Assembly (NCBI GenBank): GCA_005222975.1
Contig: NJBI01000061.1
Span: 1 to 18,174, forward strand
Length of the DNA stretch: 18,174 bases
Origin: Promethearchaeota archaeon Loki_b31
Lineage (GTDB): Archaea > Asgardarchaeota > Lokiarchaeia > Sigyniarchaeales > SOKP01
Reading direction: 5' to 3'
Below the pieces are notes generated by a model, which saw nothing but the letters and a program-made list of their open reading frames with translations, did not search any database and was not told where the DNA came from. The translations under genes were made by a program, and so were the position numbers. This document shows, one piece after another, positions 3,938 to 9,559 of this stretch. Each line of letters opens with the position of its first letter. Position 1 is the stretch's first letter.

Positions 3938-5656
3938 ATGATGAACACCAATTACAGGAAATTTCTCATAGTTCTTTTTGTAGTCTTAAGTTCTCTAATT
4001 CCACTAATCTTTATGGATGATCTCTTCAATTATAACTCTTTGGATCGTGAAATTTTTAACACAAACATCGATCCGAAGATACAAGTCTTCTCCAAAGACG
4101 ATTATACCCCAATTCTTAATGATCCAGAGCAAGGCCTTGGGAACATTACAATTACTAACCTTACTTTTAATGAAGAAGGTATTTTTAATCGATCAGATAA
4201 ATATCCTAACCTCGTCGATGACCTAATTACTGGAGCGTTAAATATTTCCTATTTAGGAACGGAATATATGCAAACTAATGAAATAGCACAGTTCAATAAT
4301 CTTGATAAGTCTTTACTAGAATCAGATGAAATAACGGTATTGATAAATGAGTCGATTAGCGTTCAGTATAATAGTTCTATAGGGGGATCGGAAGGGTATT
4401 TAATTTATAGTCCAAGATTGATTCTAAGCGTTCTCAAACAAGTACGTGTACAAAATGAATCTTCTTCGATCATTGAAGAATTAAGCGAAGATGAATACTC
4501 CCTTGATGCTGATGATTATTTAATCTTCGATTATCAAAACTACTTCCAGGACCCAGATAATTTTCACAATTTTTCTATGTATTTAATTTTTGAATATAAA
4601 TTGACCGCTTTTGGATGGGAATTAGATCAAGACCCAAAAAATATCTTAACATTAACACAACAGCAACAGACTTTTAGCCCTTCATTTTATTATAATTTTA
4701 CGCTAACCGGATTAAAGAGTTCGGATAATCTAACGATTTCTTTTCTGCCAGCGGATAATCTCGTTGTAGAATTAATCGTCAATCCGCTTGATAAGAATCT
4801 ATTTTACGATCAACAATTAAAAATCAACGATACAGTAGTTAATGACTTTTTAGAACAAGATAATTTAATAAATGTTACAATCTCAGCTGACGCTAAATTA
4901 TTTTCTTTAACATTTAAAACGAATTTCACCCTTAAATTTGAAAATTCCGTTGATTATAGCTGGGCTATTGATAGATTAATCGAAGGTAGAAATGTAAGGG
5001 AAAGAATATACTTTCCTTCTTTAATATCTGGACCAAAACATATTTATTTAAAAAATGCAACTTTAGTTGATAGCACCATTACTATAAATCAAGTTATCAG
5101 TAATAGTTCTTTATTTGATAGACCTGTTAATTACTTTGACGTCATAGTGTCCATTACTCAAGCATCAATTGAGTATAGCTTAATCTTTACTGAAAATGCC
5201 GTAAAAAGGAAGGGATTGAGAATAACGATCCCTTATCTCATTGTTGGTGAAACTAACCCGTTTTTGTTAAAATATGATGCTACAAACGATCTCAAAATTG
5301 TTATTACCGATACCATACGCATGCCTTTAATTGGTTATAGAATAGAATTATTTTATTTTGGAAAAGTATTTGGAACTTATATCTCAAATGATTTAACTCA
5401 ACCTATGGCACCTGCATATTCGAATGAAAATGGAGAGATTATAATTGAGAATGTTCCTAATGGAAACTACACAATTAAAATTTATCAAGACAATGTAATG
5501 ATAATGGACTCTTTAATAAATACATTTACCGAAGTTAATTATATAAGAACAAATGTACCATATTTCCCACTTTGGATTCTTATATTTGGATGTATAAACG
5601 GTGCTTTGATACTTATAGGTTTAATCATTTATTTTAATCATAAGAGACGATCTTAA
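3938..5656 (+). CDS. Secreted, C-terminally membrane-anchored putative surface glycoprotein
   Basis: N-terminal hydrophobic signal (KFLIVLFVVLSSLIPLIF), C-terminal TM helix followed by a basic tail (HKRRS), many N-X-S/T sequons, and a carboxypeptidase-regulatory-like beta domain (SNENGEIIIENVPNGNYTIKI). Confidence 0.75.
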   Translation: MMNTNYRKFLIVLFVVLSSLIPLIFMDDLFNYNSLDREIFNTNIDPKIQVFSKDDYTPILNDPEQGLGNITITNLTFNEEGIFNRSDKYPNLVDDLITGALNISYLGTEYMQTNEIAQFNNLDKSLLESDEITVLINESISVQYNSSIGGSEGYLIYSPRLILSVLKQVRVQNESSSIIEELSEDEYSLDADDYLIFDYQNYFQDPDNFHNFSMYLIFEYKLTAFGWELDQDPKNILTLTQQQQTFSPSFYYNFTLTGLKSSDNLTISFLPADNLVVELIVNPLDKNLFYDQQLKINDTVVNDFLEQDNLINVTISADAKLFSLTFKTNFTLKFENSVDYSWAIDRLIEGRNVRERIYFPSLISGPKHIYLKNATLVDSTITINQVISNSSLFDRPVNYFDVIVSITQASIEYSLIFTENAVKRKGLRITIPYLIVGETNPFLLKYDATNDLKIVITDTIRMPLIGYRIELFYFGKVFGTYISNDLTQPMAPAYSNENGEIIIENVPNGNYTIKIYQDNVMIMDSLINTFTEVNYIRTNVPYFPLWILIFGCINGALILIGLIIYFNHKRRS

Positions 5657-6013: not shown

Positions 6014-7602
6014 TCACTGATTTTGATTAAAAAGTCTACCATATCCTATTAATCGGTAACGTCTATTAATAATTCTAGAAATCGCAAATATTGAATTCTC
6101 AGGAGGGCAAATAGGTGGATTTAAATTGAGAATATAAGAGTTTTTTAAAATCTTTGTAACAGTTCCTGCTGTTTTTTCAGTACCAACAACTAATAAGAGC
6201 TTTTCGTTATGTTTAAGTTGTTGAACCCTTATTTGCATTTCAGAACCAATTACTTTTTCTAAAAGGTTGACTTTTAACTCTACTTGTGAAATAATTTCGG
6301 GTAATGTGTTAGTTTTGCCAACCAAATGCCCTATCAGAGAGTCTCCCCTTGTCAAGGCGGGATCTAATTTTGTCCCTAATCCAATTAAACCACCGAGATT
6401 AGCTTCTTCTAAAAGATTATCCCCTTGGCTAATACTTACTATTTCAGTTCTAATTGGTATAAAATCGTTCTTAACTCGAAGACCCGGCCTAATTTCGATT
6501 TCTTCACCAACTTTAATTTTACCTTTTAATACGGATCCTCCTATAACTCCGCCTCTTAATTTATTGATTTCTGTGCCTGGGCGATTTATGTCAAAAGATC
6601 TAGCAACTAAGAATTGAAATTCTTCTCCTTCACGAACTTTAGGAGAAGGTATTATTTCTTCGAACGCTCGAACTATCAGATTGATATTAACGCCAAAAAC
6701 TGCGGAAACAGGTATAATTGGAGCGTTTTCGGCAATGGAATCTTTTACAAACGCTTTGATTTGCTTATAATTTTCGTACGCTTGCTCTTTTGACACCGCA
6801 TCAATTTTATTTTGGATGATAATAATGTTCTCGATTCCCGCAATATTCAATGCGGCTAAATGTTCTCTCGTTTGTGGTTGGGGACAAACTTCATCAGCGG
6901 CAATTAGTAAACACGCGCCATTCATTAAAAAAGCTCCACTTAGCATAGTAGCCATTAAGATTTCATGGCCAGGAGCATCGACGAAGGAAATATTTCTTCT
7001 AAACTCTAAATTTTTTTTACAGTTGGGGCAAACAAATCTTGGTTGACCTTTTTTTCTAGCCGCTTCTGCCATATGATACGTAAGATATTCATCGCATTCA
7101 GGGCAGTATAGAATAGTCGCATTTGAGTATCCTAATTTTATCGAAATCCCTCTCTCTATTTCCTCAGAATGTCTATCCGTCCAATCGCCCGTTAAGGTCT
7201 TAACTAGTGTAGTCTTTATAGGAAATGCCGAAATGGCTAGATCATTCCATGGTCTACATGGCCCACTAGTCCGATATTACACTCTGCTTGTTTTTTTATT
7301 AGTTCTTTAAGGTTTGTGCTTTTTTTTGGCTTTACCTTTTTTGTTGGTTCTGCTTTTTTGGCGGGTTTCTCTTTTACATCCAATTTTAAAGTTTCTACTT
7401 CTGACGATTTCTCCTTCAGTAATAAGCCTGCACTTTCAATGAATTTCAACGCTGTTGCTTTACCAATACCTTTGATTTTTAGTTTCACAATATCCTCTGG
7501 TTTAGACGAAGCTAATTTTTCAACAGAATTAATGCCTGCTTGTTTAATTTTTTTAGCTGTTTCTGATCCGATGCCTTTTACATCCTCTAATTGATTAACC
7601 AT
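6014..7602 (-). CDS. eif2g: Translation initiation factor aIF2/eIF2 gamma with N-terminal HhH extension; two exons join(7245..7602, 6014..7215), 519 aa after removal of a 29-nt intron
   Basis: Exon 1 ends NIGLVGHVDHG. Exon 2 continues KTTLVKTLTGDWTDRHSEEIERGISIKLGY, Zn ribbon CPEC...CPNC, DAPGHE, QPQTREH, NKID, PVSA, RSFDINRPG, GGVIGGS, RYRLIGYG. Exon lengths are 358+1202=1560 nt = 520 codons. The ORF track splits the gene into 7237..7602 and 6014..7072. Confidence 0.93.
7216..7244 (-). other. Candidate 29-nt bulge-helix-bulge mRNA intron in aIF2-gamma
   Basis: mRNA-sense sequence UGAUCUAGCCAUUUCGGCAUUUCCUAUAA. Central 4-bp helix AUGG(7250-7247)/CUAU(7221-7218), with 3-nt bulges AAU(7246-7244) and AAA(7217-7215). 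Cleavage after the 2nd nt of each bulge gives CAU GGA A|AG ACU ACA = HGKTT. Confidence 0.82.
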
Positions 7603-7713: not shown

Positions 7714-9186
7714 CTAGATTTCCCATTCATCATATAACCTTTTAAGGGTATTTCTCCCTACTCCATATTTTTTAGCTAATTGTGTGAGGGAAGAGTTTTT
7801 AAGGAGTCCTTGTAAATTTTCCTTGCTTCCTATTTTTTTTTTTAGCAATTCTCTTTTTGTTAAGTAATTTGTTTTGATATTCCATTCATCCATTAGATTA
7901 AGGCGTGTTTTATACCCAATTTTGAGTTCTTTAGCCGTCTTTTCTTTTCCATCTGTCTCAATCATGTTAATTAAATTTTCTTTAGTTTTAACTTTCGCTT
8001 TCAATTTTTCAACAGCAGATATTTTCTTCACATTAACATCCCACTCAATAGATAATTTATGTAAAGTATTAAAAGAAACTTTCAACATCTTTGCTAATTT
8101 TTCTTTCCCATGTGTCTTGATTACTTTTTCTAGGACTTCTGGACTTCTAATCTTGTTTTTAATAGTTTCCATAACATGTAATTGCTCGCTAAATCTTTTT
8201 CTTTTCCTTGTTAGACTATTATGATAAGAGTCCATCATTTTATTTAACAAATTAGGATTTAGAGCAAACTCATATATCGGTTTTGTTCGTTTGATTTTAA
8301 ATTTTAACTCTTCAGATAATTCGTCAACCTCACGCTTTCTAATCTCTGTTTTTATCTTATATACATTCTTAATCTGTAGTAGAAAGGAATAATTAGTAGA
8401 GTAGATAATTGTTCCTCCTTCTTTTCCATCTCCATCATAAATCCCAAGTAATAGTGCATAAGAAAGATTATTATTTTTTAAGTTAAATTTTAGTTCATTT
8501 CCTTCTTTAAATTCTCTTAATCCTAGGTTTTCAATATCTTGAAACATTGGTTTGCATGTAAAAATGATATAAACTAGACGATGTTTTTTATTATTAAGAA
8601 TCTTTGTTCTTTCACCAATTTTAGCTGGATTTAAACCTACAGCACGACAAAATTTAACTAAATGACTTCTATCTTTTTTGGATATTTCTATAGATACCTG
8701 ATATCTTTTTCTCGAAGGATCATTACCACTTGTGATTGAGCCATCTGAACATAGAAAACCAAACCAATAAGTCTTTTCAGCCGTATCAAGACATTTGAAA
8801 AAACGAGATTTTAAGTGTGGATTATATTTCTTCCATTGCTCGTGGAAGTAGTGTTTTAGATCCCTATTTACATGGTGATATTTCTCTATATTTTTTAGAA
8901 CTAATTCACTTGAAGGTCCATATTTTTCTTGTATATTCTCCTTTGCAATTTTTAATACTTTTATGGAAAATTTATAATTAGGATTATAATCTGGATTATG
9001 TGAGTTTCTTATTTTAGATAAAATATGTTTTAAAAAATGTTTTCCTTTATTAAAAATCATAACACTAATATTTTCTAAAAGCTTAGTTTTTGAGAGATTT
9101 TTAAGCTGATCATCAATATCAGGAATATTTTGTAATAGGTCATTAATTAGATCCAATGTTGTATTGGTGTGATTGTTATTGTTCAT
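7714..9186 (-). CDS. Free-standing double-motif LAGLIDADG endonuclease-like protein with three C-terminal HTH repeats
   Basis: Motif 1 YWFGFLCSDGSI and motif 2 ALLLGIYDGDG. The C-terminal 159 aa are three 53-aa HTH-like repeats. No intein splice residues or host-gene flanks. Confidence 0.82.
   Translation of the reverse strand: MNNNNHTNTTLDLINDLLQNIPDIDDQLKNLSKTKLLENISVMIFNKGKHFLKHILSKIRNSHNPDYNPNYKFSIKVLKIAKENIQEKYGPSSELVLKNIEKYHHVNRDLKHYFHEQWKKYNPHLKSRFFKCLDTAEKTYWFGFLCSDGSITSGNDPSRKRYQVSIEISKKDRSHLVKFCRAVGLNPAKIGERTKILNNKKHRLVYIIFTCKPMFQDIENLGLREFKEGNELKFNLKNNNLSYALLLGIYDGDGKEGGTIIYSTNYSFLLQIKNVYKIKTEIRKREVDELSEELKFKIKRTKPIYEFALNPNLLNKMMDSYHNSLTRKRKRFSEQLHVMETIKNKIRSPEVLEKVIKTHGKEKLAKMLKVSFNTLHKLSIEWDVNVKKISAVEKLKAKVKTKENLINMIETDGKEKTAKELKIGYKTRLNLMDEWNIKTNYLTKRELLKKKIGSKENLQGLLKNSSLTQLAKKYGVGRNTLKRLYDEWEI
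7717..8193 (-). repeat. Three tandem 53-aa HTH-like protein repeats
   Basis: The repeats end KLAKMLKVSFNTLHKLSIEWDV / KTAKELKIGYKTRLNLMDEWNI / QLAKKYGVGRNTLKRLYDEWEI at an exact 53-residue period (aa 332-384, 385-437, 438-490). Confidence 0.85.
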
Positions 9187-9331: not shown

Positions 9332-9559
9332 TTACTTGGTTGTTTCTAACGTTTTAATCGCCCCAGGTTTTTTCTCGAGTTCTTTATACGAAACTCTTAA
9401 AAGACTATCAAAATAAAAAGTAGATGTTTTACCACAAGATTCGCTTTTATGAAGGATATACACCGGAGCGGGATATTGAGACGAGTCGATATCTTCTATC
9501 TCTATAGTGAATACTATTTTCTCATGGCAAAACGGACAAGTGTTAAATCTAATCGGCAT
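9332..9559 (-). CDS. Small hypothetical protein, possibly Zn-binding
   Basis: 75 aa with CPFC and H-x4-C (HKSESC). ATG start, co-oriented with the LAGLIDADG gene. Confidence 0.7.
   Translation of the reverse strand: MPIRFNTCPFCHEKIVFTIEIEDIDSSQYPAPVYILHKSESCGKTSTFYFDSLLRVSYKELEKKPGAIKTLETTK

What the first reader, a model, noticed from the sequence alone, without database searches (positions are those of the whole stretch)
7203..7270. Bulge-helix-bulge intron inside the P-loop of an essential protein-coding gene (aIF2-gamma)
Seen: on the - strand the gene reads GGC CAT GTA GAC CAT GGA A[TGATCTAGCCATTTCGGCATTTCCTATAA]AG ACT ACA CTA. The 29-nt insert contains TAG and shifts the frame, splitting GHVDHG from KTT. 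The junctions fold as a BHB: central helix AUGG/CUAU (4 bp, one G-U) with 3-nt bulges AAU and AAA on opposite strands. On the intron side GA/UC and GCC/GGC pair; on the exon side C-G, UGUAG/CUACA and ACUAG/CUAGU pair. Cutting after the second base of each bulge gives exactly the junction that restores HGKTT and a 519-aa protein. Established: this is the geometry and cut position used by the archaeal tRNA-splicing endonuclease EndA, with ligation by RtcB; the well-documented archaeal mRNA intron of this type is in crenarchaeal cbf5. Both exons have intact GTPase motifs, so this does not look like pseudogene decay. Inference: this is an EndA-spliced mRNA intron in an Asgard translation factor that standard annotation would show as two broken ORFs. 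I cannot check whether it has already been reported. The helices flanking the bulges are short and imperfect.
Basis: partly seen in the sequence, partly recalled or inferred. Interest (0 to 1): 0.97.

Follow-up and report, generated by a model that had tools for sequence, protein, structure and literature searches.

The report
tRNA-type mini-intron splitting Asgard aIF2-gamma
The only gene for the essential translation factor aIF2-gamma in this Asgard (Loki-type) archaeon is broken in its GTP-binding loop by a 29-base insert shaped like a tRNA intron, which very probably has to be cut out of the messenger RNA and which is inherited as one block with the first exon and a neighbouring selfish DNA-cutting gene.

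Summary
On the minus strand a 29-nt insert (7244-7216) separates GHVDHG from KTT. Removing it gives a 519-aa aIF2-gamma.

It is not an artefact or a decaying gene:
- The same site is occupied in 11 of 37 genomes of the genus with a readable P-loop.
- It is also occupied in metagenome contigs.
- The gene is single-copy.
- Intron-bearing alleles evolve under purifying selection (dN/dS 0.02-0.21).

All alleles fit a bulge-helix-bulge fold with compensatory changes. The rule "cut after the second bulge base" restores the frame in every case. The genome has two EndA-family genes and one RtcB gene.

New here: the gene directly upstream (7714-9186) is a free-standing LAGLIDADG homing endonuclease.
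- It or its remnants occur only beside intron-bearing alleles.
- Exon 1 co-segregates with the intron, while exon 2 follows the species tree.
- Relatives of the endonuclease sit beside aIF2-gamma, aEF2 and aEF1-alpha genes split at the same P-loop position.

The BHB is relaxed and is not the minimum-energy fold.

This scan had already noted the same aIF2-gamma intron, and similar nuclease-plus-mini-intron cassettes, on other Asgard DNA. The papers I could search describe such an mRNA intron only for crenarchaeal cbf5.

The parts
7245..7602 (-). aIF2-gamma exon 1: an N-terminal helix-hairpin-helix domain, a Lys-rich linker and the first half of the P-loop (ends ...GHVDHG plus the first base of the Lys codon).
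   Evidence: Translation. Pfam HHH_5 at aa 4-58, E 1.4e-11. This 'type A' exon 1 is found only in intron-bearing alleles plus G009.
7216..7244 (-). 29-nt bulge-helix-bulge mini-intron. It contains a TAG and shifts the frame.
   Evidence: An insert of 29-30 nt lies at the same position in 11 genomes of the genus. There is covariation at stem pairs 34/42 (U-A, C-G, A-U) and 31/45.
6014..7215 (-). aIF2-gamma exon 2: the rest of the Lys codon, KTT of the P-loop, the remainder of the G domain with its zinc knuckle, domain II and the eIF2-gamma C-terminal domain. The stop codon is at 6016-6014.
   Evidence: Translation. Pfam GTP_EFTU, GTP_EFTU_D2 and eIF2_C. It is 94-97% identical to intronless relatives.
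7203..7270 (-). The whole BHB motif, made of four elements:
- An outer exon-exon helix.
- The central 4-bp helix AUGG/CUAU.
- Two 3-nt bulges (AAU, AAA).
- The intron hairpin.
   Evidence: The central helix is paired in 11/11 alleles (G-U becomes G-C in G003). The BHB-constrained fold is -9.0 kcal/mol against an MFE of -14.6 in this allele.
7714..9186 (-). Free-standing LAGLIDADG homing-endonuclease gene (490 aa). It has two LAGLIDADG motifs (YWFGFLCSDGS and LLLGIYDGDGKEG) and three C-terminal helix-turn-helix repeats. It lies 111 nt upstream of aIF2-gamma on the same strand.
   Evidence: - Pfam finds nothing.
- A profile search against PDB puts I-AniI (E 0.011) and I-HjeMI on top.
- The AF2 model has pLDDT 74.5. 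All 50 best Foldseek PDB hits are proteins with the LAGLIDADG fold: homing endonucleases, their intein forms, a maturase and WhiA.
- A homologue is named DOD-type homing endonuclease by UniRef.
9332..9559 (-). Conserved 75-aa zinc-ribbon-like ORF. In most relatives it lies directly upstream of aIF2-gamma, and it marks the upstream edge of the inserted endonuclease block.
   Evidence: tblastn on loci. It is adjacent to the gene wherever the endonuclease is absent.

Best explanation
The 29 nt at 7244-7216 are a tRNA-type (bulge-helix-bulge) intron in the aIF2-gamma pre-mRNA.

Proposed splicing mechanism:
- The last exon-1 bases AUGG pair with CUAU near the intron's 3' end.
- This 4-bp helix is flanked on opposite strands by the 3-nt bulges AAU and AAA, and it stacks on an intron hairpin.
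- The heteromeric (alpha-beta)2-type splicing endonuclease EndA cuts after the second base of each bulge.
- RtcB joins the exons to read GGA-AAG, which restores the P-loop GHVDHGKTT and a 519-aa factor.

Proposed inheritance at the DNA level:
- The intron is part of a mobile block: a free-standing LAGLIDADG homing-endonuclease gene, exon 1 and the intron.
- The endonuclease probably cuts intron-less P-loop DNA.
- Repair from an intron-bearing donor copies the stretch from the break up through exon 1 to the endonuclease gene.
- The intron both interrupts the target site and keeps the host gene functional. This is collaborative homing.

Shown here:
- The anatomy and its conservation.
- Covariation in the fold.
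- Purifying selection on intron-bearing alleles.
- Presence of the enzymes.
- The LAGLIDADG fold of the neighbouring gene.
- Mosaic inheritance with a boundary at the intron.

Inferred, not shown:
- Splicing itself.
- The endonuclease's target.
- The direction of DNA transfer.
For: 1. Real and recurrent.
- Inserts of 29-30 nt lie at exactly this position in G000, G049, G004, G047, G056, G051, G002, G015, G014, G012 and G003.
- 26 other genomes of the genus have an uninterrupted P-loop.
- The same insert is in marine-sediment contigs L062/L063 and L067/L068.

2. The gene is needed.
- It is the only aIF2-gamma in the 92%-complete genome.
- There is one hit per intron-bearing genome, including genomes that are 100% complete.
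- dN/dS between intron-bearing alleles is 0.02-0.21, the same range as intronless pairs.

3. Fold.
- 91.4% of cells pair, against 28-44% for slid registers.
- The central helix is 100% paired.
- There are double-sided changes at 4 pairs, including U-A/C-G/A-U at pair 34/42.
- All 11 intron alleles use CAT GGA at the junction and 10 of them AAG (G051 AAA). Intronless alleles vary synonymously there.
- In intron-bearing/intronless sister pairs, 3-5 differences fall within 16 nt of the junction (Fisher p 0.001-0.04).

4. Machinery.
- The genome has two EndA-family genes of 200 and 201 aa, and one RtcB gene.
- Asgard EndA is reported as (alpha-beta)2 with the L1 loop, which gives broad specificity (PMC5829648).

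5. Endonuclease.
- It has the LAGLIDADG fold and motifs.
- It, or its remnants, is found only beside intron alleles: intact in G000, frameshifted in G014, C-terminal remnants in G015 and G056. It was not found beside any intronless allele for which upstream sequence was held.

6. Block inheritance.
- Amino-acid identity, exon 1 / exon 2: G000 vs G017 is 53 / 96%; G004 vs G008 is 49 / 97%; G000 vs G004 is 80 / 86%.
- In the exon-1 tree, intron alleles plus G009 form one clade with 100% support.
- The exon-2 clade is rejected on exon-1 data (p-AU 5.7e-5).

7. Same site in paralogues.
- Endonuclease relatives (37-59% identical) lie beside aEF2 (L064, L065) and aEF1-alpha (L079) genes.
- These genes are split by 30-32-nt inserts between the same Gly and Lys codons.
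- The same cut rule works in each.
Against: - An exact search for the spliced junction in metagenome contigs returned only GTPases of other organisms.
- The BHB is relaxed in this allele. The exon-side helix next to the bulge is a single C-G pair, and the intron-side helix is 2 bp followed by an internal loop.
- The BHB is not the predicted MFE. A competing exon-1 hairpin, CCAUG/CAUGG, is 4-7 kcal/mol more stable in most alleles.
- G003 needs a 4-nt 5' bulge or a shifted stem register.
- The 11 alleles are 92% identical on average, so the covariation rests on few events.
- For the homing part: the endonuclease's target was not tested.
- G049 and six other intron alleles lack the endonuclease.
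- L091 has an endonuclease relative beside an intron-less aIF5B.
- The exon-1 tree fits spread of the intronless exon-1 type as well as spread of the cassette.
- My genome-wide strict BHB scans showed no enrichment near endonuclease paralogues, but they also missed known positives.
Confidence: 0.82

Rival explanations
1. The gene is a pseudogene, or a recently broken gene, in a decaying or chimeric MAG. The insert is junk left by an insertion or repair event, and the cell uses another factor.
For: The unspliced frame stops after 121 aa. The bin has 6% contamination.
Against: - It is the only aIF2-gamma in the genome.
- The same insert is in 11 genomes plus metagenome contigs.
- Both exons stay intact, with dN/dS 0.02-0.21.
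- Stem changes are compensatory.
Confidence: 0.03
2. The insert stays in the mRNA and is skipped by the ribosome. This would be programmed translational bypassing, as in phage T4 gene 60, or a frameshift.
For: A stop codon follows soon after the Gly codon and a hairpin lies in the gap. This loosely resembles gene 60.
Against: - There is no matching landing codon. Take-off would be at GGA (or GGU in L062), and no GGN precedes AAG in any allele.
- The conserved features are the BHB pairs and the 3-nt bulges, not codon matches.
- A 29-nt shift with in-frame stops cannot be a simple +1 or -1 frameshift.
Confidence: 0.03
3. The insert is removed, but not by EndA/RtcB. It could be removed by an unknown RNA-processing activity, or excised at the DNA level in part of the population.
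For: The BHB is relaxed and is not the MFE. Splicing was not observed.
Against: - 29 nt is far too small for a group I or group II ribozyme.
- The cut rule of EndA (after the second bulge base on both sides) gives the exact in-frame junction in aIF2-gamma, aEF2 and aEF1-alpha inserts of different sequence.
- There are no direct repeats beyond 1-2 A that would guide DNA excision.
Confidence: 0.07
4. The intron is real, but the neighbouring LAGLIDADG gene is an unrelated passenger, or a maturase-like or regulatory protein. The presence/absence pattern would then come only from vertical descent, precise intron loss and ordinary recombination.
For: - Seven intron alleles have no endonuclease gene.
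- L091 has the endonuclease beside an intron-less aIF5B.
- The target was not tested.
Against: - The endonuclease or its remnants lie only beside intron alleles.
- Relatives of the endonuclease lie beside four different translational GTPase genes, next to the same P-loop DNA.
- The recombination boundary coincides with the intron.
- In L065, a duplicated 5' gene fragment ends at GHID, the presumed break point.
- A paralogue sits 104 nt from a second mini-intron gene (lsrF) in this genome.
Confidence: 0.25

Closest known systems
BHB intron in the cbf5 (pseudouridine synthase) pre-mRNA of Crenarchaeota (Watanabe 2002; Yoshinari 2006; Yokobori 2009, PMC2738675)
   Same: - It is a protein-coding archaeal gene interrupted by a short intron that folds as a bulge-helix-bulge.
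- Hosts have a hetero-oligomeric EndA.
- The intron is gained and lost among close relatives.
   Different: - The gene differs: an essential translation initiation factor, cut inside the P-loop.
- The phylum differs: Asgard / Promethearchaeia.
- Splicing is not yet shown here.
- This intron is linked to a free-standing homing-endonuclease gene and to a co-inherited first exon. To my knowledge that has not been described for cbf5.
Archaeal rRNA/tRNA BHB introns that encode LAGLIDADG homing endonucleases (I-DmoI, I-PorI, I-Tsp061I)
   Same: It combines a BHB intron with a LAGLIDADG endonuclease. I-DmoI and I-Tsp061I are among the structural matches of the 490-aa protein.
   Different: - There, the endonuclease ORF lies inside a long intron of an RNA gene.
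- Here, the intron is 29 nt and has no ORF.
- The endonuclease is a separate gene upstream.
- The host is a protein-coding gene.
Collaborative (trans) homing in phages: free-standing F-CphI beside the ORF-less group I intron of cyanophage psbA (PMC6083498), and T4 mobE with the I-TevIII intron (PMC2790892)
   Same: - A free-standing endonuclease gene lies next to a gene whose ORF-less intron sits at the presumed cleavage site.
- Endonuclease, flanking exon and intron are inherited together.
   Different: - The intron type differs: protein-spliced BHB here, self-splicing group I there.
- The endonuclease family differs: LAGLIDADG here, HNH or Endo VII-like there.
- The host is a cellular archaeon, not a phage.
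- Cleavage specificity is untested here.
Abundant tRNA introns of Asgard archaea (PMC11291895; bioRxiv 10.64898/2026.10.13.758758)
   Same: Same lineage, same presumed splicing enzymes, and frequent relaxed or non-canonical motifs.
   Different: Those papers treat tRNA genes only. A term search of the preprint (mRNA, cbf5, aIF2, initiation factor) found no mention of mRNA introns, and the intron passages of PMC11291895 concern tRNA genes only.

Membership tests
Archaeal bulge-helix-bulge (EndA-spliced) intron | A 4-bp central helix flanked by two 3-nt bulges on opposite strands | tested here: met
   AUGG/CUAU with bulges AAU and AAA. The central helix is paired in 11/11 alleles. G003 needs a 4-nt 5' bulge.
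Archaeal bulge-helix-bulge (EndA-spliced) intron | Outer helices on both sides of the bulges (h and h'). Relaxed forms lack one of them. | tested here: inconclusive
   - The intron-side helix is 8 bp in most alleles, but only 2+3 bp with an internal loop in this one.
- The exon-side helix is 1-2 bp, then a bulge, then 4-5 bp.
- This fits a relaxed motif, not the strict hBHBh'.
Archaeal bulge-helix-bulge (EndA-spliced) intron | Cleavage after the second base of each bulge yields the functional product | tested here: met
   It gives GGA|AAG, which restores GHVDHGKTT. The same rule works for the inserts in L062, L067, L064, L065 and L079.
Archaeal bulge-helix-bulge (EndA-spliced) intron | The structure is conserved through compensatory changes | tested here: met
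   Four pairs show double-sided changes. 0/500 shuffles reach the observed covariation score. Slid registers pair at 28-44%. The number of independent events is small.
Archaeal bulge-helix-bulge (EndA-spliced) intron | Host encodes the splicing endonuclease and the RtcB ligase | tested here: met
   Two PF01974/PF02778 genes (C13, C79) and one PF01139 gene (C84).
Archaeal bulge-helix-bulge (EndA-spliced) intron | Spliced RNA, and an excised (circular) intron, are observed | not testable with these tools
The junction search in metagenome contigs found only unrelated genes.
LAGLIDADG homing endonuclease (the 490-aa upstream ORF) | Two LAGLIDADG helices with terminal acidic residues in a pseudo-symmetric alpha-beta-beta-alpha-beta-beta-alpha double domain | tested here: met
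   - Motifs YWFGFLCSDGS and LLLGIYDG(D/E)G, with D148, G149, D251 and G252 invariant in 12 homologues.
- Profile hits to I-AniI and I-HjeMI.
- All top 50 Foldseek hits are proteins with the LAGLIDADG fold (homing endonucleases, intein forms, a maturase, WhiA), with TM by target 0.27-0.61.
- No Pfam hit.
LAGLIDADG homing endonuclease (the 490-aa upstream ORF) | Site-specific cleavage of the allele that lacks the element, followed by gene conversion | not testable with these tools
   There are only indirect signs:
- Its distribution.
- The mosaic boundary at the intron.
- A duplicated gene fragment ending at GHID in L065.

The most novel reading that the evidence does not exclude
A family of free-standing LAGLIDADG endonucleases in Asgard archaea targets the DNA that encodes the universal P-loop (DHGK[T/S]T) of translational GTPases: aIF2-gamma, aEF2, aEF1-alpha and perhaps aIF5B. 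It spreads as a cassette of endonuclease gene, replacement first exon and ORF-less 29-32-nt BHB intron. Homing endonucleases would thus be seeding tRNA-type introns into essential protein-coding genes of the closest archaeal relatives of eukaryotes. Expression of the translation apparatus would then depend on EndA/RtcB mRNA splicing.
Probability: 0.55. Interest if true: 0.9.

Novelty: new variant of a known kind. Interest (0 to 1): 0.8.

Why it matters
In the papers I could search, protein-spliced introns inside archaeal coding sequences are documented for a single gene family, crenarchaeal cbf5.

- **An essential gene depends on the tRNA-splicing enzymes.** The intron sits in the catalytic P-loop of an essential, single-copy translation initiation factor of an Asgard archaeon. 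If it is spliced, EndA and RtcB are needed to make working mRNA for the core of the translation apparatus.
- **The intron is polymorphic among close relatives.** That allows natural with/without comparisons.
- **A concrete, testable route for spread.** Its linkage to a free-standing homing endonuclease and to a co-inherited first exon suggests how tiny ORF-less introns enter and spread through protein genes. This bears on the long-standing question of how introns colonised genes in the lineage that gave rise to eukaryotes.
- **Annotation.** Standard pipelines report such genes as two fragments (133 aa + 395 aa in public calls). This inflates pseudogene counts and lowers apparent completeness for Asgard MAGs.

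Tried and rejected
- **Spliced junction in metagenome contigs.** An exact search for CATGTAGAYCATGGAAAGACNACNCTAGT gave 8 hits. None is from this lineage: three are aIF2-gamma genes of other archaea, 43-50% identical, and five gave no hit to the aIF2-gamma query and look like other GTPases.
- **Rfam and ARAGORN on the window.** Nothing found.
- **Single-sequence AlphaFold of the endonuclease core.** It failed, with pLDDT 36. The model built from an alignment worked.
- **Pfam on the endonuclease.** No family, even at E 10.
- **Genome-wide scans for a strict BHB plus joinable ORFs.**
  - 101 hits were found against 92 expected by chance.
  - Stricter versions gave 11 and 49 hits.
  - There was no enrichment in 62 endonuclease loci.
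  - The filters miss the known aIF2-gamma introns, so these scans say nothing either way. They did recover the thiolase (C58) and lsrF (C99) candidates.
- **Other P-loops in this genome.** aEF2, a second EF2-like gene and aIF5B are uninterrupted here.
- **The '1 TAA inside' flag for G056.** It is just the natural stop codon.
- **Rejected after consideration.**
  - Translational bypass: there is no landing codon.
  - A split two-polypeptide factor: the first Met of exon 2 is 48 residues in, and the residues before it are conserved.
  - An intein or a group I/II intron: the insert is too small and shifts the frame.
Full report
**1. The observation**

On the minus strand the window reads ...GGC CAT GTA GAC CAT GGA A, then 29 nt (7244-7216), then AG ACT ACA CTA....
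- The upstream frame (7602-7245) gives 119 residues ending in GHVDHG.
- The downstream frame (7213-6014) gives TTLVKTLTGDW... for 399 residues.
- Pfam finds an HHH_5 domain in exon 1. It finds GTP_EFTU, GTP_EFTU_D2 and eIF2_C in exon 2.
- The insert holds a TAG and shifts the frame.
- Alone, the fold is unremarkable. The minimum-energy structure does not contain the BHB, and its energy equals that of shuffled sequence (z = 0).

**2. Not an artefact and not decay**

- The 92%-complete genome holds one aIF2-gamma gene. The only other hit is a different GTPase, 32% identical.
- Across the 42 genomes of the genus, 11 carry an insert of 29 nt (30 nt in G015) at exactly this position. These are G000, G049, G004, G047, G056, G051, G002, G015, G014, G012 and G003. 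A second contig binned with G005 also carries it.
- 26 genomes have an uninterrupted P-loop.
- Each intron-bearing genome has a single hit, including bins that are 100% complete.
- dN/dS between intron-bearing alleles is 0.02-0.21. Between intronless alleles it is 0.12-0.17.

The interrupted genes are therefore kept functional, so the insert must be removed or skipped during expression.

**3. The fold**

I aligned the 11 alleles (A1) and counted pairs for the BHB structure.
- 91.4% of cells form standard pairs, against 28-44% when the 3' partners are slid by 1-3 columns.
- The central helix is paired in all 11 alleles. Its G-U becomes G-C in G003.
- Stem pair 34/42 occurs as U-A, C-G and A-U.
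- Pairs 31/45, 12/63 and 15/60 also change on both sides.
- All intron alleles read CAT GGA before the intron, and 10 of 11 read AG after the A (G051 reads AA). Intronless alleles vary synonymously at these codons.
- In four intron-bearing/intronless sister pairs, 3-5 of the 16 junction bases differ, against 4-7% elsewhere (p 0.001-0.04). Same-state pairs show no such excess.

Caveats:
- The alleles are 92% identical on average.
- RNAalifold prefers an exon-1 hairpin, CCAUG/CAUGG.
- BHB-constrained folds lie 4-7 kcal/mol above the MFE.
- In this allele the helices next to the bulges are 1 and 2 bp.

This is a relaxed motif.

**4. Machinery**

- The genome encodes two EndA-family proteins of 200 and 201 aa, each with the N-terminal and catalytic-type domains, and one RtcB.
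- Two separate subunit genes fit the (alpha-beta)2 enzyme. Kaneta et al. report this enzyme for Asgard archaea, with the L1 loop that gives broad specificity for relaxed motifs (PMC5829648).

**5. The neighbour**

Directly upstream on the same strand lies a 490-aa ORF (9186-7714).
- Pfam finds nothing convincing.
- It carries two LAGLIDADG-like motifs that are invariant in 12 homologues.
- A profile of these homologues hits I-AniI and I-HjeMI first among PDB sequences.
- One homologue is named DOD-type homing endonuclease.
- All 50 best structural matches of the AlphaFold model are proteins with the LAGLIDADG fold: homing endonucleases, their intein forms, a maturase and WhiA.
- The ORF is inserted between aIF2-gamma and a conserved 75-aa ORF. 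In other genomes that ORF abuts the gene.
- It is intact in G000, frameshifted after the nuclease core in G014, and reduced to C-terminal remnants in G015 and G056.
- It is absent from the other intron alleles and from all intronless alleles for which upstream sequence was available.

This is the pattern expected of a homing endonuclease that invades, becomes fixed and then decays.

**6. Block inheritance**

- The exon-2 tree needs at least 4-6 gains or losses of the intron. It places intron-bearing and intronless alleles as close sisters, for example G004 with G008, and G000 with G017.
- Exon 1 tells a different story. Ten intron alleles plus G009 form one clade with 100% support and a long stem. 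The intronless alleles of the same two exon-2 clades form another clade.
- The exon-2 clade of G000 is rejected on exon-1 data (lnL difference 175, p-AU 5.7e-5).
- Amino-acid identity, exon 1 / exon 2:
  - G000 vs G017: 53 / 96%.
  - G004 vs G008: 49 / 97%.
  - G000 vs G004: 80 / 86%.

The gene is therefore a mosaic whose boundary lies at or just upstream of the intron. Exon 1 travels with the intron and, where present, with the endonuclease gene. The trees do not say which type spread into which lineage.

**7. The same site in paralogous GTPases**

Relatives of the endonuclease are almost confined to Asgard MAGs: 62 loci, and the titles include Promethearchaeia, Hod-, Hermod-, Thor-, Hel-, Odinarchaeota and Atabeyarchaeia. 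The closest relatives lie beside translational GTPase genes:
- aIF2-gamma in L062/L063. The endonuclease is 59% identical, the insert is 29 nt, the central helix AUGG/CCAU is perfect, and the 5' bulge is UAC because the Gly codon is GGT.
- An aIF2-gamma with a zinc-ribbon N-terminus in L067/L068.
- aEF2 in L064, with a 30-nt insert. Its central helix has one U-U mismatch.
- aEF2 in L065/L066, with a 32-nt insert. There is also a duplicated 5' gene fragment that ends at GHID.
- aEF1-alpha in L079, with a 32-nt insert.
- aIF5B in L091, which is not interrupted.

In every split gene the insert lies between the Gly and Lys codons of DHGK. Cutting after the second bulge base restores the frame.

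In this genome the other GTPase P-loops are intact. One of seven endonuclease paralogues does lie 104 nt downstream of an lsrF-like gene split by a 32-nt BHB with a 10-bp stem.

**8. Interpretation**

The best-supported reading has two parts. Confidence differs between them:
- About 0.85 that the insert is an EndA/RtcB-spliced mRNA intron.
- About 0.6 that it spreads as a cassette by collaborative homing. In this model the endonuclease cuts intron-less P-loop DNA. The intron then serves both as the shield of the target site and as the device that keeps the host gene working.

Rivals have little support. They are pseudogene, ribosomal bypass, another removal mechanism, and an unrelated neighbour (see the Rival explanations section).

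**9. What is known**

- The papers I could search describe BHB introns in archaeal coding sequences only for cbf5 of Crenarchaeota (PMC2738675 and the references in it).
- For Asgard archaea they describe tRNA introns only.
- Collaborative or trans homing is described for phage group I introns (PMC6083498, PMC2790892).
- Within this scan, the same aIF2-gamma intron was already noted in relatives. Nuclease-plus-mini-intron cassettes were followed up in other Asgard genomes. Those are unchecked AI notes. I tested the claims that bear on this locus myself.

**10. Limits**

- There are no RNA data.
- There is no biochemical test of either enzyme.
- The covariation rests on few independent changes.
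- My genome-wide motif scans were too noisy to count introns in this genome.

Noticed in passing
window 7246-7602 (-), and L067 2157-2426: aIF2-gamma carries an N-terminal helix-hairpin-helix domain and a Lys-rich linker throughout this genus and in sister families. These have open frames of about 490-600 aa, and I did not inspect their N-terminal sequence. A related lineage (L067/L068) has a zinc-ribbon N-terminus instead. Within the genus, two sharply different exon-1 types coexist, 49-56% identical.
   Followed up: partly
G000 contig C99 10371-12485 (locus L069 572-2686): An lsrF-like aldolase gene is split into 223 aa + 42 aa by a 32-nt insert with a 10-bp stem. A 398-aa LAGLIDADG paralogue lies 104 nt downstream. 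This is a second mini-intron plus endonuclease pair in the same genome.
   Followed up: partly
G000 contigs C96 (two), C38, C5, C34, C18: There are six further paralogues of the 490-aa endonuclease, 27-32% identical. I found no convincing split gene beside them with my filters, but the filters are insensitive.
   Followed up: partly
L065 (Logan SRR30758825 contig), whole locus: An aEF2 gene has a 32-nt P-loop intron. It is preceded by the endonuclease gene on the opposite strand and by a duplicated aEF2 5' fragment that stops at GHID. This looks like a footprint of cassette insertion at the break site.
   Followed up: partly
L091 3001-5957: An endonuclease relative (33% identical) lies 183 nt upstream of the P-loop of an aIF5B gene that has no intron. 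This may be intron-less homing, or a resistant target.
   Followed up: no
G005 contigs C106 and C165: One bin holds two aIF2-gamma alleles. One is intronless. The other is an intron-bearing fragment identical to the G049 type around the intron and, over the first 85 exon-2 residues, to G000. The cause is strain mixture or contamination (8%).
   Followed up: no
window 3938-5656 (+): A 572-aa ORF has an N-terminal and a C-terminal hydrophobic segment, many N-x-S/T sequons and no Pfam family. It is probably a glycosylated surface protein.
   Followed up: no
G052 contig C243, end at 4920: The contig ends within 3 nt of the start of exon 2, so the state of the intron in this genome is unknown. Assemblies may tend to break at this polymorphic site.
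   Followed up: no
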